IMG/VR virus record: IMGVR_UViG_3300010158_000045
Location: 25,398-89,397 of that record
DNA: 64,000 nucleotides
Origin: a virus
Reading direction: 5' to 3' (one strand)
Position 1 is the stretch's first letter. Every line of letters begins with the position of its first letter. Of the stretch, positions 13,896 through 63,710 are shown one piece after another. The position numbers were made by a program, and so were the translations under genes. The notes below the pieces were generated by a model. The model searched no databases, had not been told where the DNA came from, and saw nothing but the letters and a program-made list of their open reading frames with translations.

Positions 13896-14174
13896 TTATA
13901 AAATCGGACAAGCAATCGTGAAAAAACTTAGTTCTTTTTCACTTTCAAAGCCAATTCGTGTATTATATACAATAGTATTTGAACTATCGAGCCCAATGCC
14001 CTGTCCTATGTAGTACCGATTATTTAAGTTCTTACTGATCCACGCATCTAAAGATTTGATTAACGTGGGATTATATCGGTCAATAATTGTGTATTTAAAA
14101 TGGGGACAGGCAAAATCAACCCTCCGCAAATTGAAATAATTTAAAGGATTGGCTTTGCCTGCTTTTAGTGTCAT
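13896..14174 (-). CDS. Hypothetical protein
   Basis: 92 aa, ATGA overlap with the upstream VWA gene. Confidence 0.6.
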   Translation of the reverse strand: MTLKAGKANPLNYFNLRRVDFACPHFKYTIIDRYNPTLIKSLDAWISKNLNNRYYIGQGIGLDSSNTIVYNTRIGFESEKELSFFTIACPIL

Positions 14175-15355
14175 GCTACTTCTTTAACTTCTTCGTAGTA
14201 CGCATACTCGCCGAATGGAGGAACAATTTTATCATTGCCGTGAATAATAAACACTGTATCACAGTAGTTTTCATCACCCCAGCTACCCCAAGGATAACCG
14301 TCTGTAAACATGATAAACTTCTTAGGATGAATATCATTTTCTTTCATGTAATCCCAGTTAACATCAAACTCTGTTCCGCCACCGCCCATTGGCTCGTAGT
14401 AGTCAAACTCGTCGATGTTATATCCATCAAAATCAGCTTCGTTGTATACTTTAGTGTCAAAGCACCACACTTTAATTTTAAAGTCTTGATACTCTTGCAT
14501 AATACCTTTGATCTCTGACAAAAAGTCTTTAGCCTGCTCGTCACCGATACTACCTGACATGTCAATGCCTACACAAATATCAATAGTTTCTTGAAATTGT
14601 GTACCGGGCAAAATAGCGTTCATATGCCAGCCCTTACGATTAGGACGCATAAACGAATAGTCGTTTTTAATAGTACTTTGAATTTGCTGGCGTAAGATCT
14701 CACGCCAATTCATTTTAGGTTCTGTAAAATCTTTAATCATTCGTTGTACACTTGCAGGAGTATTACCTGCACCTGCGGCATTTGCCGCTTGAATAGTAGC
14801 TTCACGAATTTCGTCACGAATCTGTTTTAATTCTTCTTTGGTATACTTAGGCTGATTACCCTTGCCGTCTTCGCCCCAATCAATGTGTTCATCCAACAAT
14901 TGACCAAGTGCATTAAGTTCATCTTCGTCCATTTCGTCAAAGATTTTGTCATAGACTTCTTCTGCACCCATACCGTAATATTTAGGGTCATGGAAGATTT
15001 TAATACCTTCAATATTGTGTTCACCGATACGGTCACGAACTAATTGTCCATTTACACAATAGTCAGCGGCAATATTAAAAATACGTGCGTTACGACCTTC
15101 ACGACGACCCATGTGGTCAAATACGTTGTGTAAAATTTCGTGTGCAATAACAAACTCTACTTGCTTAACACTAAGTGGAGCAAAAAATTCACGATTAAAA
15201 TAGATTGTGCGTCCATCAGTAGCGGCAGTGGGAACCCAATCTGATGCTTCTTGGATTTTTAAACGTGTAGCCATATTGCCGAAAAACGGATGGCGAAGTA
15301 GTAGACCCACACGGGCTACAATAATTTTATCAATAATTGGATCTGCGTTTGACAT
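14171..15355 (-). CDS. Metallopeptidase-like + VWA domain protein (DUF2201-like)
   Basis: TAATDG, HEILH (HExxH), MIDAS DMSGS, GGGGT, FTDG; start at 15355 has AGGAG RBS. Confidence 0.85.
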   Translation of the reverse strand: MSNADPIIDKIIVARVGLLLRHPFFGNMATRLKIQEASDWVPTAATDGRTIYFNREFFAPLSVKQVEFVIAHEILHNVFDHMGRREGRNARIFNIAADYCVNGQLVRDRIGEHNIEGIKIFHDPKYYGMGAEEVYDKIFDEMDEDELNALGQLLDEHIDWGEDGKGNQPKYTKEELKQIRDEIREATIQAANAAGAGNTPASVQRMIKDFTEPKMNWREILRQQIQSTIKNDYSFMRPNRKGWHMNAILPGTQFQETIDICVGIDMSGSIGDEQAKDFLSEIKGIMQEYQDFKIKVWCFDTKVYNEADFDGYNIDEFDYYEPMGGGGTEFDVNWDYMKENDIHPKKFIMFTDGYPWGSWGDENYCDTVFIIHGNDKIVPPFGEYAYYEEVKEVA

Positions 15356-15384
15356 ATTTGCTCCTGATTGTTTACTATGTATAT

Positions 15385-15413
15385 AGTATAACACCTCCCG
15401 AAGGAGGTGTCAA
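15385..15413 (-). promoter_or_regulatory. sigma70 promoter TTGACA-17-TATACT with palindromic spacer (cUUCGg hairpin)
   Basis: Minus strand reads TTGACA cctccttcgggaggtgt TATACT; 8-bp stem at 15391-15410. Confidence 0.7.
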
Positions 15414-33523: not shown

Positions 33524-36193
33524 TTAAAACTCGAATAAACTGTTAAATGTATTTTTTTCTTCGGTACTTCTCACGTCCCATTTAAGCACACCAATCAAAT
33601 TTTCTAATTTCTTATCAATAATAGTGGCCTCCATTTCTGCATGATCAAAAGGCAAATCCTTGAACCACTGCGGAAGTCTCAGCTCGTCTACTGGATAAGC
33701 CACACTGGTAAACGCCAGCGGATTAGGTTTGAGTTTACAAACAATAACTTTCTGACCATCAGTAATGTTCATTGAGTATTTGTCGTTGTACATTCTTTTG
33801 AGCGTATTCCAATTAATACTTGCTCGTACATGACCAGGCATATTAGCCTTGCCAGCTTTCTTCTCTTTTGCTTCGTATTCTGTAACTTTGTTTGCACGTT
33901 TTGGACTTCCTTTTTCCCAACCTGGACGAGCTTTGAATTTACTTCTAAACTCACTAATGCTGTCTAACACAGCCTGTTCTTCCTTGCCAGTAAGCACCAT
34001 TTCTAAAACTTCGCTTAAAAAGTCTTGAATAAATTCTGGTGTATCACTGCGTTTGAGATCCAGCCCCATGGCTTTAATCTTGCCTGGTTTGCCATCTACG
34101 TCTGTGCGCTTGCCTTCTTTATCATAATACAGCACCGCATAACGTTTCTTGGTAATGAATAAACTCTTTGACCCAACAATTTCTCGGCCAGCTTTGATAA
34201 CTTCGCCACGTGATTTAGGTACGTGGAATGTGTCCAACATAAACTGTGGGAACGTGTTGTTAACTTCATCTGCAATTTGATCATACAGTTGAATTACATT
34301 TTCCCGACTCCACGGAATTGCGCCACTATCGATATCTTTCTTTAACGTCTTGTATGCTGAGAAATAACATGAGTCTGTATCACCATAGATAACTGCTTTA
34401 CCCACGTGGTCATACTCACCTGTGATAATTTCATTTACCTTACTGGCCATATGCTTGGCAATTTGTCTGCCAACCAATGTTGTCGACTGACCAATTCGCT
34501 TGTCAAAGAACCTGCATCCACTGTTAAGAATAGCACCATACAAACTGTTAAGATTAATTTTCTTAACCAACTGTCGTTTGTCCCAATATTCCTCTTCAAC
34601 TTTATTGCCGGCCTTGATAGCTTCTTTTAATTTGGCCTGCATTTCTTTACGTTCTGCATACCAGCGTTTTAGTAGTCCAGGAATAATACCTTCTTTTTCA
34701 TAAGTAAAAATTGTGCCGTTACTAGACAACATCCAAGGTTGGTTACTTTCAAATATGAGTCTATATACTTCGGCGGCACTTACTACGTCAACATCTCCGT
34801 TTTCCCAATCAATGGTAATGTCTGTGCCAATCTCTTGAGCCATTACTGCTTCATATTCATCCGCACCGAATTTACCTTCCCAGGCAGCCGCAAAACTTTT
34901 ACCTTTGGCTATTTGTGCTTCGATGTATTCTTCAGTTTTAGTCTGACGTAACTGTCCAATAATTGTTTCTGGACCCATGTTAAGCGCACGAATAGCACTT
35001 GGATAAAGACTATTGATATCCAATGAACCTACCCAGTCTTGAATACCTTCTTTGGGATAAGCAACATACGCACCAGCCGCACCTTCGTTATCTTCACGTT
35101 CACTCATCTTAGTGCGGTTAGGCACTTGCATGCCTCTGCGATGGCATTCGTTAATAATAGCTTGCTCAGTTACCGCCACAGCACCCATTGTTGTCTGTAG
35201 TAATACTGTATTTTCATGTGCCAGTGTATTGGCAAGGTCCATGAACTTTAATTTCTTATCAAGATCGTCAAGCAGTTTACAGTCATTGATGTTATATTCA
35301 ACAAACGTCTTAAAGTCATTGTTGTATAATTGGTCGAGTGTACCTTCATATTGTGTTTTACGTTTACCTAACTCATATTCCGCAATGGCGTCAAGTCTAT
35401 AACTGTGGCGTTCTTCATACGTATACTTACGGTACAACTCAAGATAGTCTAAATGAACGCGACCAATGTAGTCATAGGTTACACTATCACGACCAAACTT
35501 TTCATATTCTCTGCGTTTAGGAAACTGATCAAACAAACAGAAACGACGGGTATCTTCTTTACTCAATACCTTTGTCACTCTATTTGTGGTATAAGGCACG
35601 TCAAATCCTTCACTGTTCCAACCACTAAGCACGTCTGCATCTTTAATTAGATCCAAGAACATATCCAACAAGTCTGCTTCTTTGTCAAACAAATAAGTGT
35701 TAGGAAAATCTTTGACCATTTCCTTGGCTTCTTCCATCTTAAGACCTTTAGGAGGAATAGCCAAACATACCATAGTTTCTAACCATTGTAGGTAGACAGC
35801 AATCGCAGTAATTGGCATGAACGCATCATCTGGACTTGCATAGCCACGCTCTGGATCAAAGTCTACCTCAATATCGAAAAATGCTACATTTAGTTTAGGC
35901 GCATCTTGATTTAAATAGTGTTCACTTAGTGTAACAAAGATTGGATTAATATCGCTTTCAAACAATTCTTTGCCGCTGTTAATAGCCTGCTCTTTTCTGA
36001 GCTCTTTAGTATTTTTACAAACAATCTTGGTTAAGGAATCGCCGTAGATGGATTCAAATTTGCCGCGAGGGTCTTTAACATAGAACGTGTGTTTGACAGG
36101 AATGTCACGGAACTCACGCTCACCTTTTTTATTACGTTCAACAACGCGAATGATATCATTCTCGCGGTCAAACCATGCGTCTACATAAGACAT
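33524..36193 (-). CDS. Family B DNA polymerase
   Basis: Exo DIE, WNSEGFD, YNIND; polymerase DINSLYPS, KINLNSLYG, YGDTDS, KKRYA. Confidence 0.97.
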   Translation of the reverse strand: MSYVDAWFDRENDIIRVVERNKKGEREFRDIPVKHTFYVKDPRGKFESIYGDSLTKIVCKNTKELRKEQAINSGKELFESDINPIFVTLSEHYLNQDAPKLNVAFFDIEVDFDPERGYASPDDAFMPITAIAVYLQWLETMVCLAIPPKGLKMEEAKEMVKDFPNTYLFDKEADLLDMFLDLIKDADVLSGWNSEGFDVPYTTNRVTKVLSKEDTRRFCLFDQFPKRREYEKFGRDSVTYDYIGRVHLDYLELYRKYTYEERHSYRLDAIAEYELGKRKTQYEGTLDQLYNNDFKTFVEYNINDCKLLDDLDKKLKFMDLANTLAHENTVLLQTTMGAVAVTEQAIINECHRRGMQVPNRTKMSEREDNEGAAGAYVAYPKEGIQDWVGSLDINSLYPSAIRALNMGPETIIGQLRQTKTEEYIEAQIAKGKSFAAAWEGKFGADEYEAVMAQEIGTDITIDWENGDVDVVSAAEVYRLIFESNQPWMLSSNGTIFTYEKEGIIPGLLKRWYAERKEMQAKLKEAIKAGNKVEEEYWDKRQLVKKINLNSLYGAILNSGCRFFDKRIGQSTTLVGRQIAKHMASKVNEIITGEYDHVGKAVIYGDTDSCYFSAYKTLKKDIDSGAIPWSRENVIQLYDQIADEVNNTFPQFMLDTFHVPKSRGEVIKAGREIVGSKSLFITKKRYAVLYYDKEGKRTDVDGKPGKIKAMGLDLKRSDTPEFIQDFLSEVLEMVLTGKEEQAVLDSISEFRSKFKARPGWEKGSPKRANKVTEYEAKEKKAGKANMPGHVRASINWNTLKRMYNDKYSMNITDGQKVIVCKLKPNPLAFTSVAYPVDELRLPQWFKDLPFDHAEMEATIIDKKLENLIGVLKWDVRSTEEKNTFNSLFEF

Positions 36194-57110: not shown

Positions 57111-57614
57111 TTATCTCAGGAATTCACGCCAGTCTAAATTATAGGCTAAACTATCTATTTTATGAACTCCTATCAAATATAACACATAACTTGCTACACT
57201 CGACCCTCTGCCTACACCCCATAGAATTTCTTTTTCTTCTAAAGTATCTACCAAATATTTAAGGTAGTACAATAAATCCATCATGCCGTGCGCTATAAAT
57301 GCTTCTAATTCTTCGCTAACTCTGGTTGTTTGTTCTGGAGTAGTACACATTCCGTATAACATTTCTACTAGATTTGCACAGTAGTCCTTGGGCATAAACC
57401 AAAGTTGTTGACTGGCCCTGTCGTAATCTTGGATATTATTGTGAGTTTCGTATGGCGTAACAAATCTAAAACCAATTTGTTCTTCTAGTTGTTTTACAGC
57501 ATCAGTGCGTTCAACAATCATGGTGTCGTCCACATTAAATTGATATCCATTATAAATGGCATCAAATAAATCGTGTTCTTCAAAGATTGGATTACTGTAT
57601 TTGTCTAGGCGCAT
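57111..57614 (-). CDS. DNA polymerase III alpha-like fragment (mini-DnaE)
   Basis: RVSEEL, WGVGRGSSVASYVLYLIGVHKID..YNL..EFL motif of the DnaE NTPase/palm region. Confidence 0.75.
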   Translation of the reverse strand: MRLDKYSNPIFEEHDLFDAIYNGYQFNVDDTMIVERTDAVKQLEEQIGFRFVTPYETHNNIQDYDRASQQLWFMPKDYCANLVEMLYGMCTTPEQTTRVSEELEAFIAHGMMDLLYYLKYLVDTLEEKEILWGVGRGSSVASYVLYLIGVHKIDSLAYNLDWREFLR

Positions 57615-57623
57615 TTACCTAGT

Positions 57624-57854
57624 TTAACTGATATTGATCAGTTTGTCAAGTCCTTTATCACGGCTAGACATCATTTTTTCATATTCGGCTTGACGTCGTT
57701 TGCTTGTTTCTGCTTTATAGGTATCCAGCAAAGTACTTATTTGTTGTTGCACACCAAAATTATTAGTCAAAAAATACTTTCGAGTTAGATCATTGATTTT
57801 ATTTTCTAACTCGGAATCTTTTAAAGCACTAAGATCGCCTGCCAATGGATGCAT
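57624..57854 (-). CDS. Hypothetical protein
   Basis: 76 aa helical ORF. Confidence 0.6.
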   Translation of the reverse strand: MHPLAGDLSALKDSELENKINDLTRKYFLTNNFGVQQQISTLLDTYKAETSKRRQAEYEKMMSSRDKGLDKLINIS

Positions 57855-58969
57855 TAATGATACTCGCCTAAATATTTAATGTAAACATTAGTACCGGCGT
57901 CGTATGTCCATGCTTCAATCACTTTGATATTGTTACTAGTACTAGATGTTAATGTTGCAACCGCGGTAGCAGTTACTCCAGCAGTAGGCGCACTAATGGT
58001 AACAGTTGGAGCAACAGTAGTATAACCATCTCCTGCAGAAGTAAGATTAATAGATTTTATTCCGTTAGATACTGTAGCTTTTGCGTTGACACCCGATCCG
58101 CTAATTGCTGTTAAAGTATATGTACCTGGATATGGTCGATTCAATGTACCACTGCTAACTACGGTAAATGCTGTGATTGCACCTGTACCTTGTGTAATTG
58201 TGGCTACTTGTAAAATAACATCGCTGTGTGCATCGATAGCCAATTGATCGCCAACTTGGAAACCTGTGCCACCAACTGATACAGTTGCACTAACGATTTG
58301 ATATACAGCCGTTGCTGTAGGGCTAGTACCGCCTGACAATACCGGGCTAGTAAAACTTATGGTTGCCGGTGTAGTGTATCCAGAATTAGGAGTACTATTA
58401 ATGTTAGCATTGGTTACTTGAATACTGTCAACTCCTTCGCCTCCTACTGTAAATCCTAAAGTAGTAGTTCCTGGCAATGTTGGATAATCGGTAGCATAAT
58501 GAATTGTGCCAGATCGTTCTGTACTAAAACTAACAGTTCTAACTCCAGCGCCGTCGCCAACTAAAATAATTTGTATTTTAGCCCATTGACCGGTAGTTGA
58601 CGGCCAGTTCACAAATGTTAAGGTAGGATTTCCAGCCAGTTTAAATTTTTGTATAGGGCCACTGGTTAAATCTATATTTGCATTGGCACTGATACCTAAC
58701 AAGCTACCGTCAAAATATACGCCGTAAAATTGACTATACAATGCATTGTATATTGTACTGCCTAGCATGTTATTTTGTACAGTGGTAGTGCCTGTTGCTA
58801 AATCTGCTTTTAATATTGTATTAGATTGCAATGCTGTAATTTCTGCTTTGGCAACACCTAGCCCAGCTGAAATAGCTGTAAAGTTATCTCTAAATCCCTG
58901 ACTGTTGTTATCTTGTCCGGCAACTGGGTAAGTTGTGTTAATTGCACCGTAATTAATCTGACTGGTCAT
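57854..58969 (-). CDS. Putative virion structural protein
   Basis: YPVAGQDNNSQGFRDNF N-terminus; T/S-rich beta repeats with GxGY/F motifs. Confidence 0.65.
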   Translation of the reverse strand: MTSQINYGAINTTYPVAGQDNNSQGFRDNFTAISAGLGVAKAEITALQSNTILKADLATGTTTVQNNMLGSTIYNALYSQFYGVYFDGSLLGISANANIDLTSGPIQKFKLAGNPTLTFVNWPSTTGQWAKIQIILVGDGAGVRTVSFSTERSGTIHYATDYPTLPGTTTLGFTVGGEGVDSIQVTNANINSTPNSGYTTPATISFTSPVLSGGTSPTATAVYQIVSATVSVGGTGFQVGDQLAIDAHSDVILQVATITQGTGAITAFTVVSSGTLNRPYPGTYTLTAISGSGVNAKATVSNGIKSINLTSAGDGYTTVAPTVTISAPTAGVTATAVATLTSSTSNNIKVIEAWTYDAGTNVYIKYLGEYH

Positions 58970-61900
58970 ACTGTTATCCTATCGTTTTTGAATACTAGGT
59001 ATTTATCGCTTGTGTAACCGGTGACAGAATCTATTATATATCGGTCCACGGTGTAATCTAAATCTTTAAAATCAAACCCGCTATTTTCAATTAATAGCTT
59101 TATCCCTGCACTTTTACCCACTAAACAATAACAAATAGGAACGGCAAGCACAAATCCTATTTCTTGTTTAGTGCCCGGTTGAATACTGCGCATCCATAAA
59201 GGCAAATAATTGCGTTCTGTTAGGCCGGTTTGCCCAATACGATACTGCCAATTCGTTATACTACTGGGGAAAAACTTACTTACATTTGAATTGCTAATTT
59301 GATACCCTGTACTATCGGCAGTTACCACTTCTAATGGTCTACTGTTGCTAGGAGCATTTGCAGTCAAATCCGACAGATTTCTACTCCACAAATTTGGAAC
59401 ACTATCAATAGTTATGGTATCGGACTGATGTCCTCTACTTTTTATAGATGTTGGCAAATGTAATCCGTTAGGTTCTAATGGGTCTAGCATTTTTAAATAA
59501 ACAACTTCGTATACCGCTGTTGTAGTTCCCGGCAAGTAAGCTACAGCAGTTTCTACACTATTAAATATAAATCGTTTGCGTTTATGATTAAGCCCCATAG
59601 CTGAAGCAAGTTTTGCCGCACTATTGGTTTGGATTCCTGCATAGGCAACCATGCTAAGATTATATTGTAATCCAAAGTTTGGATCATTTGATCTGTAAAT
59701 TGATTGTGGCGCAAACACTGTGGTGTTGTTCATAAAACTCTTAAATGCAGTTCGTTGAGTATTATTCAAGTATGGCTGTACTCGTATGTTACTGTAGGCA
59801 ATAGCGTTAGGTACATCTATGTTTACTGTAAATGTTCGAGATACCGCACTGTAACCAAATTGATCTCTAGCTTCTACAGTGAACGAATACGAACGATCAA
59901 CAGTGGTAGCGGCTACATCGAATGTTAGATTGCCATGGTCAAAGCTGGTTAAGCCCAATATGTGGTTGGCTGGGTCGGGGAATTGTATAACTTTACCGAT
60001 TATTTCGCCATCGGTGGTTAAAGTGAGCCCGTTAGGCAACACTCCTTGAGTAACCGTATACAATACAACTGCATTTAAAATTGTTGTTGTAGCACTTACC
60101 CGTAGCGTAGAAATATAGTTTGCATGAATAGTTCCAAGATTGCTTGGAGTGTTCCAGGTAATTACGCTGTCTATTTCGCCTATGATTGTTATAGTAAATG
60201 TTCTGCTTGAGCTAAGACTATCACCTTTATTACCCGGACGAGTTGCAGTCAACGTAAATGTATAGATAGTAGTAATAGCTGGTTGGTACGGAACATTTCC
60301 GTATAATTGCGCAGTGTTTAAATCAAAACTCATACCAGGTGGTAGTGAGCATAGTGTGCCTATGTAAAATATAGTGCCGTCTGGAATATTCTGTAATAAT
60401 GTAGACGAAATATATACTCTATAAACTCCGTTACCTAAATTAATTACGTTGCTAATTCTATAAGTTTGTCCGGTCGCTCCAGGAATAATTCCTTCAAAAC
60501 AAATATATTGTCCTATCGCAATATTGCCTTTAACATTGGTTACTGTAAGATGGTTACTACGAAACGAATTGTCAGTGTTGGATATATTAATACTGGTAGC
60601 ACGGACTTCTCGATTAATCACTTCTTGATTATAATATACATTATTATTATCGTACAATGCTACTGGAATAGTAAGATAGTTACTGGCTCTGAATATACCC
60701 AAGTTAGGATTAGATAACCACACTGGCTGACGCAAATAAGTGGCATCTGCGGTAAATCCTTGATTACCAACAAATCCATCCAAACTGGTGTTGTCAGCAC
60801 GGAATGTATCATCACCTACTACAAATATTCTAAAAATTCTCTGAGCTATTTTGTAACCGTCTGTTACTGTTACTTTAAACTGGTAGTTGACGTTAAGACT
60901 GATAGGCTGACCGTCCGGTAAATTGTAATCATAAAACACATCATCGTAAAAATATGTATCAAATCCGTTGGTAGACAGTGTGGCAAAGTCGTAGGCTACA
61001 GCGTCATAAGTAGATTCGTCGTAGGTGCCTTTTCCGTCCGCTGGTGTAATTTTAAGAGTAGGCTTTATGTATCCGGTAATCAATCCAGTGGAGTCCATAC
61101 TTAGACCTGGAGGCAAAGAACCGTCTCCGGATGCTATGTAATAAGTTAAAATGTTTCCAAGGGCTTCGTCAAGATCAAATGCTTCTATTTTATAATTTAC
61201 ATAAGTTCTGTCAAGTGCGTACAGTTGTTGATGAATACCTACCGGCAATGCTCCTGCGGCTGTGACAAATGTGGGAACATTAACAGCACGGGTAGTTATG
61301 CTGAATGTTCTATCAGCAATGCTTACACCATTAGAGGCTCTTATGCAAAATGTAAATGTAGTATCAGTGGCAACAATATAAGGATAGCCAATGATGTGTG
61401 AACCGGATATTTGTAATCCGCCAGGTAAAGCACCACTGATTATATTATAAGTAAATGCCGCTGGATCCGTAGCGGGATAATTAACGCCTCCGGCAGTATC
61501 AGTTGTAATGTAATCAACACCATTTATAGCAGTAGGCAAATATAAATCAGAACGTTCAACAGCTACAAACGCATCGAGTTGCATGCGAACAGTATCAGTG
61601 TTTCTAAGTATAATTTTCGATAATGTTTGAGATTGCAACCAGTCAAAGTCTCCAGGTGCCCATGGCTGGTTTTCCCAGTATAGCGCATCACCATCGCGTA
61701 GTCTTATCATCTGGCTTGATATGATATTTTGAAAAGTTTGTCCTACCATAGCACCGGGAACTGGAGTTTCGGCTAACCCTCCGACCCACAAATCAATATT
61801 ATTAATATTAGTATATGCAGTTTGTAAAGCGGAAGCTACTACGCTGTCTGTAGTTATTTGACTAAATGAAGTGTACGCCGATAATCCTAATGCTGTACGC

Positions 61901-63162
61901 ATTTGATTTAAACTTGGTAATCCAGCATCACGTCCACGTTGTATATTAGTTGCGGCAAGATCCATTGCGGCAGGCGGATCATTTAATAAATTACGCAAGT
62001 CTTCAATGATATGTACATCTAATTTATTACTGATGTCGCTGGCTAATTTGCGTATAAACCCGTCAGCACCGCCATTACGTTCAAACTGTGCAGGTGTTAA
62101 AAAGAAAGCCTGAGCCAATGTCAAAGACTCTAAAATGTTACCCTGTTCGTCTACACGATCTTGCGCACCTGATACAATACTATGACCAAATCTCATTGCT
62201 GCCACAGCAAACTCTACAGTTACGCTGGCATCGATATTTGTTTTAAAACCTGTATATGCCGGAATAGTTGAAGCACCGACAATCTTTGGCAACCATTCTT
62301 TATATGTTATATTTTGAAATTCGGCAATAACTATGTTGCGAGCACGTTGATATAATTGTTCTCCAGTCCATGTTGGATGTAGTACTTTTAATCTGTCAAC
62401 ATGCCAGTTATGTTCTCTGATGAATAGTGTTTGTATAGACGTTAAATCTGGATTTTCTGTGCCTCGAGGATCTCCAAATACAAAACTATTATTAACAACA
62501 GGTGCATATTGTCCATTAGAGCTGGTAGACAATTTGCCAGTAGTTGCAGGTTGACCGCCTTCTCTTAAATTAATAGGATTTTGAAAAACAGTTGGACCTT
62601 GTGATACACCTGGAGGATAGGCAAGTCCATAAACAACACTACAATCTATCCAGCCAGTGACATCATTTATTGGCAGTGCTGTATGACCAGCTATACCTGT
62701 TCCTGGGGCAATAGCACTACGATTAACTGGAATATGACTTCCGGGAGTTAAATTAGTGTCACCTGCCGGCACAACAACATCTATGTTAGTACTACCAGGT
62801 CGAGCAAATTCTAAATCGTGTGTTAAAAATTGTCCAAATGCATACATGAATCCGCTATATCCAGTAGGATCAGTTTCTTCACCTTCGTTGACTTGATCCC
62901 ACACTACTAAATTACTAACAGTGCGAGCATTAGGCAAATCATTACGCATTTGATAAATGCCGTCTACATAACTGTTTACAGCATTACGAATAAAAGGGGC
63001 ACCGGCACTATTTCGTAAAGTAGCAACCGGATGATGTCCTTGCCCGGTATAACTGGGATTAGTTAATGCCCCGCCAATAGGTAAGGCAATATTTACTGAT
63101 GTTTGTTCAGTAAAAGTGCCGAGACTTGCTCCCGACTGTTTTGTCCATACATCTAAAGCCAT
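58966..63162 (-). CDS. Large virion-type protein: animal-type heme peroxidase domain plus Ig-like repeats
   Basis: Peroxidase motifs FGQFLTHD, TGWIDCSVVYG, GDPRGTEN, REHN, RFGHS, NIQRGRD, DLWVGGLAE, LRDGD, followed by several G.LP.G(L/M) Ig-like repeats. Confidence 0.85.
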   Translation of the reverse strand: MALDVWTKQSGASLGTFTEQTSVNIALPIGGALTNPSYTGQGHHPVATLRNSAGAPFIRNAVNSYVDGIYQMRNDLPNARTVSNLVVWDQVNEGEETDPTGYSGFMYAFGQFLTHDLEFARPGSTNIDVVVPAGDTNLTPGSHIPVNRSAIAPGTGIAGHTALPINDVTGWIDCSVVYGLAYPPGVSQGPTVFQNPINLREGGQPATTGKLSTSSNGQYAPVVNNSFVFGDPRGTENPDLTSIQTLFIREHNWHVDRLKVLHPTWTGEQLYQRARNIVIAEFQNITYKEWLPKIVGASTIPAYTGFKTNIDASVTVEFAVAAMRFGHSIVSGAQDRVDEQGNILESLTLAQAFFLTPAQFERNGGADGFIRKLASDISNKLDVHIIEDLRNLLNDPPAAMDLAATNIQRGRDAGLPSLNQMRTALGLSAYTSFSQITTDSVVASALQTAYTNINNIDLWVGGLAETPVPGAMVGQTFQNIISSQMIRLRDGDALYWENQPWAPGDFDWLQSQTLSKIILRNTDTVRMQLDAFVAVERSDLYLPTAINGVDYITTDTAGGVNYPATDPAAFTYNIISGALPGGLQISGSHIIGYPYIVATDTTFTFCIRASNGVSIADRTFSITTRAVNVPTFVTAAGALPVGIHQQLYALDRTYVNYKIEAFDLDEALGNILTYYIASGDGSLPPGLSMDSTGLITGYIKPTLKITPADGKGTYDESTYDAVAYDFATLSTNGFDTYFYDDVFYDYNLPDGQPISLNVNYQFKVTVTDGYKIAQRIFRIFVVGDDTFRADNTSLDGFVGNQGFTADATYLRQPVWLSNPNLGIFRASNYLTIPVALYDNNNVYYNQEVINREVRATSINISNTDNSFRSNHLTVTNVKGNIAIGQYICFEGIIPGATGQTYRISNVINLGNGVYRVYISSTLLQNIPDGTIFYIGTLCSLPPGMSFDLNTAQLYGNVPYQPAITTIYTFTLTATRPGNKGDSLSSSRTFTITIIGEIDSVITWNTPSNLGTIHANYISTLRVSATTTILNAVVLYTVTQGVLPNGLTLTTDGEIIGKVIQFPDPANHILGLTSFDHGNLTFDVAATTVDRSYSFTVEARDQFGYSAVSRTFTVNIDVPNAIAYSNIRVQPYLNNTQRTAFKSFMNNTTVFAPQSIYRSNDPNFGLQYNLSMVAYAGIQTNSAAKLASAMGLNHKRKRFIFNSVETAVAYLPGTTTAVYEVVYLKMLDPLEPNGLHLPTSIKSRGHQSDTITIDSVPNLWSRNLSDLTANAPSNSRPLEVVTADSTGYQISNSNVSKFFPSSITNWQYRIGQTGLTERNYLPLWMRSIQPGTKQEIGFVLAVPICYCLVGKSAGIKLLIENSGFDFKDLDYTVDRYIIDSVTGYTSDKYLVFKNDRITV

Positions 63163-63710
63163 TAGATAATTGTTCCAAAATTTACTTGTAGTTGGGGCTT
63201 AGGATCTACCAGCTGACCCATGTCAACAGTGTATCCTCTAAAATTAGTGTCAAGACCCGCCGGAGTTTGTATAGACCCCATGTCAACATTTACAGTACCT
63301 GATTCAATAATCATGCTGACTAAAAAAGACAAATTAGGAACATCAATGCCGCGTACTGTAGTTTGGGTATCGCCTGGCCCGACAATATTGTGTCCAGCTA
63401 GATTTAAATTAGCTGACAGTGTGGGAGCAAGATCGTTAGCCAGTCGTGTGTTAGCATGTAAGTTGACTGTGGTAGAAGTATTAGTAAACGTAACTGTACT
63501 GTCTGTACTAGTTAATGTTTTAAACTGTAAATTCACACCATCACGTGACGCATACACACCGGTGCCACTGCCCACGTTGGCTCCGCCTAAAATAGTAAAT
63601 TCTGTATCTAATGCGGCAAAATTGTCGTTTACTTTAAGAAACGCAGTACGCAAGTCATCGCCAGTACCGTCGTTTGCGTAGTTACCTAAGTTAATCTGTT
63701 GTAATGGCAT
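63162..63710 (-). CDS. Baseplate wedge/fibre-connector-like protein (T4 gp9/gp10 N-terminal motif)
   Basis: INLGNYANDGTGDDLRTAFLKVNDNF; TAAATA at 63729-63734 upstream. Confidence 0.7.
   Translation of the reverse strand: MPLQQINLGNYANDGTGDDLRTAFLKVNDNFAALDTEFTILGGANVGSGTGVYASRDGVNLQFKTLTSTDSTVTFTNTSTTVNLHANTRLANDLAPTLSANLNLAGHNIVGPGDTQTTVRGIDVPNLSFLVSMIIESGTVNVDMGSIQTPAGLDTNFRGYTVDMGQLVDPKPQLQVNFGTII

What the first reader, a model, noticed from the sequence alone, without database searches (positions are those of the whole stretch)
61560..63020. Animal-type heme peroxidase domain embedded in a phage virion/baseplate-type protein
Seen: roughly aa 50-535 of the 1398-aa protein carry the peroxidase-cyclooxygenase superfamily motif set in order. 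These are the distal Gln/His and Ca-Asp (FGQFLTHD), Ca loop (INDVTGWIDCSVVYG), distal Arg plus heme-ester Glu (GDPRGTEN), REHN, proximal His (RFGHS), its Asn partner (TNIQRGRD), DLWVGGLAE and LRDGD. The Asp before the distal His, which forms one heme ester in myeloperoxidase/lactoperoxidase, is Thr here. The domain sits between a short N-terminal segment and Ig-like repeats, in a late operon directly after a gp9/gp10-like gene; no signal peptide is evident. Inference: a heme enzyme displayed on the virion. It could detoxify H2O2, oxidise halides or phenolics to attack capsule or matrix, or cross-link virion tyrosines. I know of no characterised peroxidase-bearing phage particle.
Basis: partly seen in the sequence, partly recalled or inferred. 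Interest (0 to 1): 0.92.

Follow-up and report, generated by a model that had tools for sequence, protein, structure and literature searches.

The report
Heme peroxidase cassette in phage appendage
An uncultured freshwater jumbo phage carries an apparently intact heme peroxidase as a swappable insert in a protein of its tail-fibre gene cluster; if bench work confirms it, this would be the first oxidative heme enzyme found on a phage particle.

Summary
The gene at window 58966-63162 (-) encodes 1398 aa. The block of aa ~32-566 is a clean insertion into an otherwise conserved ~862-aa protein made of Ig-like (He_PIG) repeats and an unnamed C-terminal domain.

It is not an assembly chimera. The exact protein occurs on 5 contigs. 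Contigs from two studies bridge both junctions. Dozens of independent metagenome proteins share the architecture.

The catalytic residues are invariant in 48 of 48 phage copies, and Thr always replaces the heme-ester Asp. This predicts a single-ester heme like that of DdPoxA. The cassette is patchily distributed and has been exchanged between divergent scaffolds. It is under purifying selection (dN/dS 0.16).

Virion display is inferred from conserved tail-fibre-cluster synteny, from other outward-facing modules on the same scaffold, and from a distant S8-protease-bearing relative in Agrobacterium phage Atu_ph07. It is not shown. This scan had already noted the same family on other genomes. Five literature searches found no phage heme peroxidase.

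The parts
58966..63162 (-). Whole gene, 1398 aa (P0001): scaffold protein carrying the peroxidase cassette
   Evidence: The exact sequence occurs on 5 contigs, the longest 129,563 bp.
63070..63162 (-). aa 1-31, conserved scaffold N-terminus (MALDVWT..NIALPIGG); its start codon overlaps the stop of the upstream gene (TAATG)
   Evidence: 84% identical to aa 1-31 of the 862-aa insert-free form P0028. Sequence read.
61465..63069 (-). aa 32-566, the inserted cassette (peroxidase domain plus its two linkers)
   Evidence: Absent from P0028, which resumes at P0001 aa 567 with 86% identity. The linkers aa 31-36 and 538-568 have pLDDT below 50.
61567..63054 (-). aa 37-532, An_peroxidase (PF03098) domain
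   Evidence: E 5.3e-114, full profile. Foldseek to 8s6c: E 3e-31, TM 0.84 normalised by target; to 6erc_A: TM 0.79.
62815..62835 (-). aa 110-116, GQFLTHD: distal Gln111, Thr114 at the Asp-ester position, distal His115, Ca-ligand Asp116
   Evidence: T114 is found in 48 of 48 phage copies, against Asp in 99 of 99 non-permuted stand-alone relatives.
62455..62466 (-). aa 233-236, RGTE: distal Arg233 and heme-ester Glu236
   Evidence: Both are invariant in 48 of 48 copies. Codons checked.
62182..62184 (-). Proximal heme ligand His327 (in RFGHS)
   Evidence: 48 of 48 copies. Codon checked.
59803..61464 (-). aa 567-1120, He_PIG / cadherin-like Ig repeat region of the scaffold
   Evidence: Pfam He_PIG, 3 stretches. 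Model residues 21-211 of the aa 909-1398 model match SraP and cadherin Ig-like domains, Z 10-11.
58969..59802 (-). aa 1121-1398, conserved unnamed C-terminal domain (candidate anchor), always C-terminal in relatives
   Evidence: 896 representatives at E<=0.001, with the match at the C-terminus in the listed rows. Shared with Atu_ph07 gp329 and the Phosso S8 peptidase at 24-25% identity. 2H-phosphoesterase-like fold, Z 10.1.
63162..63710 (-). Upstream 182-aa gene with a gp9/gp10-like N-terminus
   Evidence: phrog_677 E 2.8e-6, phrog_958 E 2.2e-5. A homologue lies upstream of the scaffold gene in 17 of 17 related loci.
57854..58969 (-). Downstream 371-aa gene whose start overlaps the stop of the scaffold gene (ATGA)
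   Evidence: Weak phrog_460 'head closure Hc2' match, E 3.6e-5. Its N-terminal ~190 aa are conserved directly downstream in all 13 loci that reach that far.

Best explanation
The gene encodes a modular appendage protein of an uncultured freshwater jumbo myophage.

Shown: a conserved scaffold consists of a 31-aa N-terminus, He_PIG/cadherin-like Ig repeats and an unnamed C-terminal domain. A complete heme peroxidase of the peroxidase-cyclooxygenase superfamily is carried as a 535-aa cassette spliced in after residue ~31. The cassette keeps every catalytic residue except the Asp that makes the second heme ester. It is under purifying selection. It was acquired once from bacterial secreted peroxidases as far as the sampled sequences show. 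It has since moved between divergent scaffolds by recombination, and close sister phages lack it.

Inferred: the protein is made in the cytoplasm, since it has no signal peptide and only one Cys in the block. It takes up heme b there, then forms one autocatalytic Glu236-heme ester with H2O2. It is built into the virion through its C-terminal domain, so the peroxidase sits at the distal, outward-facing end of a flexible Ig-like stalk. There it would use ambient or host-made H2O2 to oxidise easily oxidised donors at the host surface: phenolics or tyrosines, iodide, thiocyanate. It would not oxidise chloride. The role would be an oxidative counterpart of the hydrolytic enzymes that phages carry on their fibres. 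Display on the virion is more likely than any one substrate or role. Within the displayed-enzyme reading I put surface attack or modification first, virion protection from H2O2 second, and covalent cross-linking or adhesion third.
For: Domain identity and integrity:
- Pfam E 5e-114 over the full profile.
- PDB sequence matches: 8s6c_A E 3e-75, DdPoxA 6erc_A E 5e-66.
- AF2 model pLDDT 73; Foldseek TM 0.84 to 8s6c and 0.79 to 6erc.
- R233, E236, H327, N406, R409 and T114 are invariant in 48 of 48 scaffold-borne copies.
- dN/dS 0.16 against L002.

Insertion rather than chimera:
- P0001 aa 1-31 and 567-1398 align to P0028 aa 1-31 and 28-862 at 84% and 86% identity.
- The exact protein occurs on 5 contigs.
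- Both junctions are bridged by contigs of two studies.
- 41 full-length fusions are among the 121 proteins examined.

Mobility:
- At least ~16 presence/absence changes on the scaffold tree, 12 of them forced by well-supported branches.
- P0003 shares 96.5% of the block but only 57.4% of the scaffold, while P0028 shares 86.7% of the scaffold and has no block.
- Between the window and L002, dS is 0.12 in the block while the scaffold is saturated (pS 0.77).
- A second insertion site exists in six proteins.

Single origin in the sample: all 48 phage copies lie on one side of a branch (99*). The nearest stand-alone proteins are ~50% identical, and some carry RTX repeats or a Tat-like signal, so they are extracellular enzymes.

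Appendage or virion reading:
- The scaffold gene follows tail-fibre, gp10-N-like and gp9-like genes in 17 of 17 loci, whether or not the cassette is present.
- Start and stop codons overlap with both neighbours.
- The same record holds baseplate hub, baseplate wedge and fibre genes.
- Other scaffold members carry CBM5/12 (5 of 40) and YHYH (7 of 40) modules.
- Atu_ph07 gp329 and its Phosso homologue have Peptidase_S8 + He_PIG + the same C-terminal domain. gp329 is the last CDS of the virion-protein cluster 'CDS 284-329' in Attai 2018 (PMC6102473, passages).

Chemistry by analogy: DdPoxA, with Ile at the Asp site, has one Glu ester. It oxidises I- and SCN- at >1e8 M-1 s-1, Br- poorly and Cl- not at all (PMC5787809, passages).
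Against: - The scaffold itself matches no tail, baseplate or virion PHROG (only phrog_29085, unknown function, E 0.0025), and its C-terminal domain has no Pfam family.
- Whether Atu_ph07 gp329 itself was detected in virions is in Supplementary Table S5, which I could not open. It is also only 24-26% identical over the C-terminal ~400 aa.
- The gene lies at the border with replication genes: a DNA polymerase III alpha fragment, a GroES-like gene, MazG and the clamp loader follow.
- The best fold match of the C-terminal domain is to 2H phosphoesterases (Z 10.1). That is an intracellular enzyme fold and does not by itself suggest an anchor.
- Both AF2 models are of middling confidence (pLDDT 73 and 71), and I could not inspect coordinates. 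That the N-terminal strands complete the first Ig domain is therefore inferred from sequence only.
- Nothing shows heme loading, activity, timing of expression or a host.
- Iodide and thiocyanate are scarce in fresh water (my own knowledge).
- The trees are FastTree only and were built on truncated top-120 hit lists, so 'one capture' holds only for what was sampled.
Confidence: 0.55

Rival explanations
1. The peroxidase is displayed on the virion but serves to protect the particle, or the adsorption step, by scavenging H2O2 in sunlit fresh water or near H2O2-producing hosts. It does not attack the host surface.
For: The enzyme is intact and conserved. The habitat is fresh water, from runs of 12 studies. 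Viral oxidative-stress genes are discussed for lake phages, e.g. ahpC in PMC12542629 (passages).
Against: Peroxidases need a reducing co-substrate and are poor catalases (my own knowledge). A general protective function fits poorly with the very patchy distribution among near-identical scaffolds, and with the same scaffold carrying carbohydrate-binding modules or, in distant relatives, a protease.
Confidence: 0.15
2. The displayed enzyme makes covalent cross-links (dityrosine or similar). These would either harden the phage's own fibres after release or glue the fibre to the host surface, as a peroxinectin- or peroxidasin-like adhesion device.
For: The peroxidase is embedded among Ig-like domains, an arrangement also seen in animal peroxidasin (recalled, not tested). 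One-electron oxidation of tyrosine is within reach of a single-ester heme (inference from PMC5787809).
Against: No evidence of conserved target tyrosines. Sister phages do without the cassette, so it is not needed for assembly. Bromide-dependent sulfilimine chemistry is unlikely without the Asp ester.
Confidence: 0.1
3. The protein is not part of the particle. It is a soluble product, either an intracellular peroxide-handling auxiliary gene or an enzyme released at lysis, that merely sits beside the fibre genes.
For: No virion or tail family match for the scaffold. Replication genes follow directly. The C-terminal domain has a 2H-phosphoesterase-like fold.
Against: Position after the gp9-like gene is conserved in 17 of 17 loci, with overlapping start and stop codons. 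More than half the protein consists of Ig-like repeats, which have no evident use in the cytoplasm. Cellular relatives of the enzyme are secreted. The Atu_ph07 relative lies in a virion-protein cluster.
Confidence: 0.13
4. The domain is a catalytically dead binding or adhesion module.
For: The Asp ester is lost in all phage copies. Some animal family members act mainly in adhesion (recalled).
Against: R233, E236, H327, N406, R409 and the Ca-loop residues are invariant or nearly so in 48 of 48 copies, although scaffolds diverge to 33-60% identity. dN/dS is 0.16. DdPoxA shows that a single-ester enzyme is active.
Confidence: 0.05
5. The fusion is an assembly artefact.
For: The gene lies 838 nt from the end of a metagenomic contig.
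Against: The exact protein occurs on 5 contigs. There are 41 full-length fusions among the 121 proteins examined. Contigs of runs X1 and X4, from different studies (2017 and 2022), bridge both junctions.
Confidence: 0.01

Closest known systems
DdPoxA, Dictyostelium discoideum peroxidase A (PDB 6ERC)
   Same: Same fold (Foldseek E 4.6e-29, TM 0.79 by target; sequence E 5e-66). Same distal Gln-His-Arg and proximal His-Asn-Arg triads, and the Glu that forms the heme ester. The Asp of the second ester is likewise replaced (Ile in DdPoxA, Thr here), so one ester bond is expected.
   Different: DdPoxA is a secreted, glycosylated, stand-alone eukaryotic enzyme. Here the domain has no signal peptide and one Cys, and is nested in a phage Ig-repeat protein. 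About 29% identity.
Bacterial secreted peroxidases of the same superfamily: Cyanobacterium TDX16 peroxidase (PDB 8S6C) and ~630-760-aa metagenomic proteins, some with RTX repeats
   Same: Best solved match (E 3e-75; TM 0.84). The nearest stand-alone sequences are ~50% identical over 93% of the block. Same catalytic residues apart from the Asp.
   Different: They are stand-alone and exported, and carry Asp at the ester site (99 of 99 non-permuted relatives). The phage copies form their own clade, all with Thr.
Agrobacterium phage Atu_ph07 gp329 and Sinorhizobium phage Phosso S8 peptidase
   Same: Same architecture: an enzyme head, He_PIG repeats and the same C-terminal domain, next to tail-fibre genes. 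Both are jumbo myophages.
   Different: The head is a subtilase, not a peroxidase. Only 23-26% identity over the last ~400 aa. Soil hosts. Detection of gp329 in virions was not verified by me.
Virion-borne depolymerases of phage tail fibres and spikes
   Same: The concept is the same: an enzyme carried on a particle appendage, exchanged horizontally between phages and patchily distributed (established knowledge; patchiness here).
   Different: Known ones are cofactor-free hydrolases, lyases, esterases or proteases, mostly trimeric beta-helices. This would be a heme-dependent oxidoreductase that needs H2O2, on an Ig-like stalk. No beta-helix was seen.
Animal peroxidasin and peroxinectin (recalled, not tested)
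   Same: A peroxidase of the same superfamily combined with Ig-like or adhesive functions outside the cell.
   Different: Different domain order and origin. Peroxidasin has both ester bonds and uses bromide.

Membership tests
Peroxidase-cyclooxygenase superfamily (Pfam PF03098 An_peroxidase) | Full-length profile match above the curated cut-off | tested here: met
   382 bits against a cut-off of 25, profile 3-530 of 530.
Peroxidase-cyclooxygenase superfamily | Distal Gln-His-Arg triad | tested here: met
   Q111, H115, R233. R233 is present in 48 of 48 copies. Gln and His were part of my selection pattern, but all 41 listed fusions that span the region have them.
Peroxidase-cyclooxygenase superfamily | Proximal His-Asn-Arg triad | tested here: met
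   H327, N406, R409, each in 48 of 48 copies. The triad is as defined in PMC5787809.
Peroxidase-cyclooxygenase superfamily | Glu that forms the heme 1-methyl ester | tested here: met
   E236 in 48 of 48 copies. The bond itself is not testable with these tools.
Two-ester peroxidases (mammalian LPO/MPO/EPO, peroxidasin, LspPOX type) | Asp next to the distal His that forms the second heme ester | tested here: not met
   Thr114 in 48 of 48 phage copies; Asp in 99 stand-alone relatives.
Myeloperoxidase type | Met after the ester Glu (sulfonium link; position recalled) | tested here: not met
   Asn237 in 48 of 48 copies.
Peroxidase-cyclooxygenase superfamily | Distal Ca2+ site residues | tested here: met
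   D116 (36 Asp, 12 Glu), T169 (46 Thr, 2 Ser), W171 and D173 in 48 of 48, S175 in 44 of 48. The identities of the ligands are recalled from MPO/LPO.
Peroxidase-cyclooxygenase superfamily | Fold | tested here: met
   Foldseek to 8s6c: E 3e-31, TM 0.84. To 6erc_A: TM 0.79. To LPO/MPO: ~0.71. The model's mean pLDDT is 73.
Peroxidase-cyclooxygenase superfamily | Heme binding and H2O2-dependent catalysis | not testable with these tools
   Needs expression and spectroscopy.
Family 6 of the superfamily (bacterial / DdPoxA group) | Placement in a reference phylogeny of the seven families | not tested
   Only nearest solved structures and a tree with metagenomic relatives. No reference set was used.
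T4 gp9/gp10-type baseplate or fibre-connector proteins | Sequence match of this protein to the family | tested here: not met
   No tail PHROG for P0001. The match belongs to the upstream gene.
Tailspike-type depolymerases | Trimeric beta-helix catalytic body | tested here: inconclusive
   Only Ig-like and 2H-like folds were listed for aa 909-1398. aa 700-908 were not modelled.
He_PIG / cadherin-like Ig repeat proteins | He_PIG profile matches and Ig-like fold | tested here: met
   PF05345 E 6e-19, 3 stretches. SraP and cadherin matches, Z 10-11.
2H phosphoesterases (C-terminal domain) | Two conserved H-x-T/S motifs | tested here: not met
   The fold resemblance is only Z 10.1 (6pfq_C, 170 aligned, rmsd 3.7). 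The one invariant His in 9 sequences is in NHKRK, and no His is invariant in 35 sequences.
Virion structural proteins (experimental) | Detection in purified particles | not testable with these tools
   No cultured member.

The most novel reading that the evidence does not exclude
Freshwater jumbo phages mount an active, heme-dependent peroxidase at the outer tip of a flexible Ig-like appendage. They use environmental or host-made H2O2 as a co-substrate to oxidise the host's surface layer, or to bond to it covalently, during adsorption. This would be a redox 'depolymerase', a class of virion enzyme not described before. It is traded as a cassette among phages much as receptor-binding modules are.
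Probability: 0.35. Interest if true: 0.88.

Novelty: new variant of a known kind. Interest (0 to 1): 0.8.

Why it matters
All virion-borne phage enzymes that I know of are cofactor-free hydrolases, lyases, esterases or proteases. A heme peroxidase on a particle would add oxidative chemistry to the tools phages use at the cell surface. It would also tie adsorption or particle survival to ambient H2O2, and therefore to light and dissolved organic matter in lakes. The Cys-poor, cytoplasmically folded, single-ester peroxidase with a defined insertion scaffold could be of use to enzymologists. The family is abundant: 41 full-length fusions are among the 121 scaffold proteins I examined, and 896 scaffold representatives exist at 50% identity. 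That gives natural with/without pairs at 87% scaffold identity, which makes the question directly testable.

Tried and rejected
Assembly chimera: rejected. In one search the contigs of run X9 reached only 26-30 nt past each junction, so I did not count them as bridging. X1 may be the source sample. X4 is from a different study and year.

Transcription: one RNA library (X20) gave two short contigs inside the block (149 and 216 nt). This does not show transcription, and I make no claim from it.

Habitat: I rely only on the runs that hold half or more of the sampled words (7 rows, freshwater or 'metagenome'). Small-share rows were not used.

DNA search of the gene against 50,697 phage records found nothing. 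tblastn of the whole protein and of the C-terminal 284 aa found only Atu_ph07 (two records) and Phosso.

BFVD fold matches to the Klebsiella phage K64-1 and Erwinia phage pEa_SNUABM_47 proteins (E 2e-16 and 3e-9, rmsd above 20 A) were not recovered by sequence. I make no claim from them.

The PHROG scan of P0001 gave no usable family. The protein-atlas search on aa 1115-1398 gave no usable hit.

The C-terminal domain as a 2H phosphoesterase: fold Z 10.1 only, and the His motifs are absent. I do not file it there.

A census of 40 long, diverse scaffold representatives (chosen by me as the 40 listed rows of at least 1044 aa that were not already known peroxidase forms, out of the 150 listed) found He_PIG in 38, YHYH in 7 and CBM_5_12 in 5. 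It found no further enzyme family. The esterase head mentioned in an earlier scan note was therefore not seen here.

Literature: five searches found no phage heme peroxidase. The hits were antibody-conjugate uses, MopA, or an ahpC thiol peroxidase auxiliary gene. Subscription journals are not covered. Supplementary Table S5 of PMC6102473, which would say whether gp329 is in the Atu_ph07 virion, could not be opened.

Caveats on counts:
- P0083, an N-terminally cut peroxidase fragment by its Pfam label, was mislabelled 'other110', so the count of ~16 changes may be off by one.
- P0070 was dropped from the tree as a fragment.
- Nine rows had an unresolved slot.
- Several loci are duplicates of one phage (L006/L011, L007/L008, L010/L017, L012/L013), so the 17 loci stand for about 13 distinct phages.
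- No complex prediction was run, and I claim no binding partner.
- I could not inspect model coordinates.

Full report
WHAT IS THERE. The window is the last 64 kb of an 89,397-bp linear IMG/VR virus record that CheckV rates 24% complete. This implies a genome of roughly 370 kb. Relatives of the gene lie on contigs of 223, 266 and 373 kb. The record carries a baseplate hub, a gp6-like wedge, a giant ~5000-aa structural ORF, several fibre genes, a T4-type DNA polymerase, a clamp loader, PhoH, MazG and a Lon-like protease. It is therefore an uncultured jumbo myophage. Public runs that hold the stretch are freshwater metagenomes.

The gene of the finding is window 58966-63162 on the minus strand, 1398 aa. 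Residues 37-532 match Pfam An_peroxidase over the whole profile (E 5.3e-114). Three He_PIG stretches follow.

THE ENZYME. By sequence, the best solved relatives are 8s6c_A (E 3e-75) and DdPoxA 6erc_A (E 5e-66), followed by lacto-, myelo- and eosinophil peroxidases and DUOX1. An AlphaFold2 model of aa 1-700 has mean pLDDT 73.2 and pTM 0.69. Its core is good and its confidence is low exactly at aa 31-36 and 538-568. The model matches 8s6c (Cyanobacterium TDX16 peroxidase) at E 3e-31 with TM 0.84, and DdPoxA at TM 0.79.

I took the 48 scaffold-linked copies that span the active site: 35 at the N-terminal slot, 6 at a second slot, and 7 further copies or fragments. In all 48, R233, E236, N237, H327, N406 and R409 are invariant, and the Ca-loop residues are nearly so. 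The Asp that forms the second heme ester in the mammalian enzymes is Thr in 48 of 48. The 99 non-permuted stand-alone relatives all have Asp. Gln111 and His115 were part of my selection pattern. However, every one of the 41 listed fusions that cover that region has them.

The solved precedent for a missing Asp is DdPoxA. It has one ester (Glu236) and Ile at the Asp site, with a lower redox potential. It oxidises iodide and thiocyanate very fast, bromide poorly and chloride not at all (PMC5787809, passages seen). The block has a single Cys, and the protein has no signal-like hydrophobic stretch. This fits folding in the cytoplasm.

THE CARRIER AND THE INSERTION. BLASTP against the 862-aa protein P0028 aligns P0001 aa 1-31 to its aa 1-31 (84% identity) and P0001 aa 567-1398 to its aa 28-862 (86% identity). 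The peroxidase is therefore a 535-aa cassette inserted after residue ~31 of a conserved protein, not a terminal fusion. At the DNA level both cassette ends carry an imperfect copy of the sequence found once at the empty site of L005.

The carrier family is large. There are 822 hits to the full protein and 1226 to the C-terminal 284 aa. There are 896 representatives at 50% identity, with the domain at the C-terminus in the listed rows. A model of aa 909-1398 (pLDDT 71) shows cadherin/SraP-like Ig domains (Z 10-11). Its C-terminal domain has best matches to 2H phosphoesterases (Z 10.1, 170 residues, rmsd 3.7). The His motifs of that family are absent, so I treat it as a structural domain of unknown role.

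NOT AN ARTEFACT. The exact protein occurs on 5 contigs, up to 129,563 bp. Contigs of run X1 (2017) and of run X4 (2022, another study) bridge both junctions. There are 41 full-length fusions among the 121 proteins I examined.

A MOBILE, SELECTED CASSETTE. Among those 121 proteins:
- 49 have an empty slot;
- 35 have the peroxidase at the N-terminal slot;
- 6 have it inside a later He_PIG domain;
- 19 have other inserts of ~60-150 aa;
- 3 are peroxidase fragments;
- 9 were unresolved.

On a FastTree of the scaffold part (120 rows), presence or absence needs about 16 changes. Twelve of these are forced by well-supported branches for the N-terminal-slot label. P0003 shares 96.5% of the block with the window but only 57.4% of the scaffold. 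P0028 shares 86.7% of the scaffold and has no block.

Between the window and L002, the block has dS 0.123 and dN 0.020 (ratio 0.16), while synonymous sites in the scaffold are saturated (pS 0.77). This indicates recent exchange of the 5' ~570 codons between divergent genes. Block GC (0.402) equals that of the phage (0.39).

All 48 phage copies fall on one side of a branch (99*) in a tree with 99 stand-alone and 16 circularly permuted relatives. This is consistent with one capture, within the limits of a FastTree built on truncated hit lists. The nearest stand-alone proteins are ~50% identical, 626-760 aa long, and some carry RTX repeats. Several are labelled as peroxidase family proteins of Mycobacterium sp. 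MAGs.

WHERE THE PROTEIN PROBABLY SITS. In all 17 related loci (about 13 distinct phages) a gp9-like gene lies upstream of the scaffold gene. It lies directly upstream or, in several loci, before a variable virion-structural gene. Wherever the locus extends far enough, gp10-N-like and tail-fibre genes precede it. A conserved ~190-aa N-terminal module gene and a DNA polymerase III alpha fragment follow. The same holds for the short forms in L005, L012, L013, L015 and L018. In the window the start codon overlaps the stop of the gp9-like gene, and the stop overlaps the start of the next gene.

Other members of the scaffold family carry CBM5/12 and YHYH modules or a ubiquitin-like N-terminus. The only cultured relatives are Atu_ph07 gp329 and the Phosso S8 peptidase. 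Both have a subtilase head, He_PIG repeats and the same C-terminal domain, and both sit beside fibre genes. Attai et al. 2018 report 131 virion proteins, mostly encoded in three clusters. One of these is 'CDS 284-329', so gp329 is its last gene (PMC6102473, passages). Whether gp329 itself was detected is in a supplement that I could not open.

All of this supports, but does not prove, an outward-facing virion appendage whose tip modules are exchangeable.

HOW IT MOST LIKELY WORKS.
- Shown: an intact, selected, mobile peroxidase cassette in a conserved Ig-repeat protein of the fibre cluster.
- Inferred: heme is loaded in the cytoplasm. One Glu236 ester forms autocatalytically with H2O2. The protein is incorporated into the particle by its C-terminal domain, and the enzyme is displayed at the distal end.
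- Inferred by analogy with DdPoxA: it oxidises phenolics, tyrosine, iodide and thiocyanate, but not chloride.
- Most likely role: oxidative attack on, or modification of, the host's surface layer at adsorption. This reading rests on the company the cassette keeps on this scaffold (carbohydrate-binding modules, a protease head) and on its patchy distribution, which resembles that of a host-range determinant.
- Rivals: peroxide scavenging, covalent cross-linking or adhesion, a non-virion soluble enzyme, a dead binding module. These are scored in their own sections.

COMPARISON AND NOVELTY. The domain is a member of the peroxidase-cyclooxygenase superfamily. It is closest to the bacterial/DdPoxA group, and its predicted single-ester heme is known only from DdPoxA. 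The carrier belongs to no named family. The combination corresponds to nothing that I could find in print (subscription journals not covered).

This scan had already noted the same family on other genomes (e1-5944888, e1-5809997, e1-5368433, e1-5944882, e1-5809992). My tests agree with those notes. They add the quantified cassette exchange, the dN/dS estimate, the junction bridging and the second insertion site. Nothing has been tested at the bench.

Noticed in passing
P0141-P0156 (e.g. P0145, 626 aa), not in the window: The closest cellular relatives of the phage block are circular permutants. They have a Tat/Sec-like signal, then the segment from the Ca loop to the end of the domain, then the distal-His segment (GQFLTHE at aa 549). 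They share the phage-type Thr. One 90% cluster has 222 members, and one member is labelled as a Chloroflexi bacterium MAG.
   Followed up: partly
P0042, P0044, P0046, P0047, P0053, P0057 (1337-1434 aa): In a divergent scaffold clade the same peroxidase sits at a second site, inside a later He_PIG domain (distal motif at aa ~586-685). The block is 63-66% identical to the window's, while the scaffold is only 36-40% identical.
   Followed up: partly
P0035, P0036, P0078, P0120: Some phage copies have an extra ~90-160 aa inside the peroxidase domain. The spacing from distal to proximal His is 305-375 aa instead of ~213, and Pfam splits the match in two.
   Followed up: no
window 61465-61480 and 63058-63072 (-), against L005:~655-670: Both ends of the cassette carry an imperfect copy (CCTATTGGCGG / CCCGCTACGGA) of a sequence present once at the empty site of the short form. 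This could be a trace of the insertion or recombination event.
   Followed up: partly
window 58969-59802 (-): The conserved C-terminal domain has a 2H-phosphoesterase-like fold (Usb1, Z 10.1; poxvirus cGAMP phosphodiesterase, Z 9.2) but lacks the two H-x-T/S motifs. An invariant NHKRKRF stretch is unexplained.
   Followed up: partly
window 57111-57614 (-): A 167-aa ORF matches only a fragment of DNA polymerase III alpha (PF07733 positions 6-94 of 260). It is conserved at the same place in 11 related loci, although the phage has a complete T4-type polymerase at 33524-36193.
   Followed up: no
L021:6850 to L022:2810 (own record, upstream of the window): One open frame of about 4986 aa, with a gp9-connector-like stretch and a match to a 3324-position 'virion structural protein' PHROG. 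It follows the baseplate hub and wedge genes.
   Followed up: no
P0066 (945 aa); P0062-P0074 group; P0087-P0093 group: Other cargo at or near the same N-terminal slot: a ubiquitin-like domain fused in front, and unnamed ~60, ~80 and ~150-aa beta-rich inserts after residue ~18. CBM5/12 and YHYH modules occur elsewhere in the scaffold.
   Followed up: partly
window 14171-15394 (-): A 407-aa HNH endonuclease (phrog_1314, E 9e-111) lies among the replication genes.
   Followed up: no
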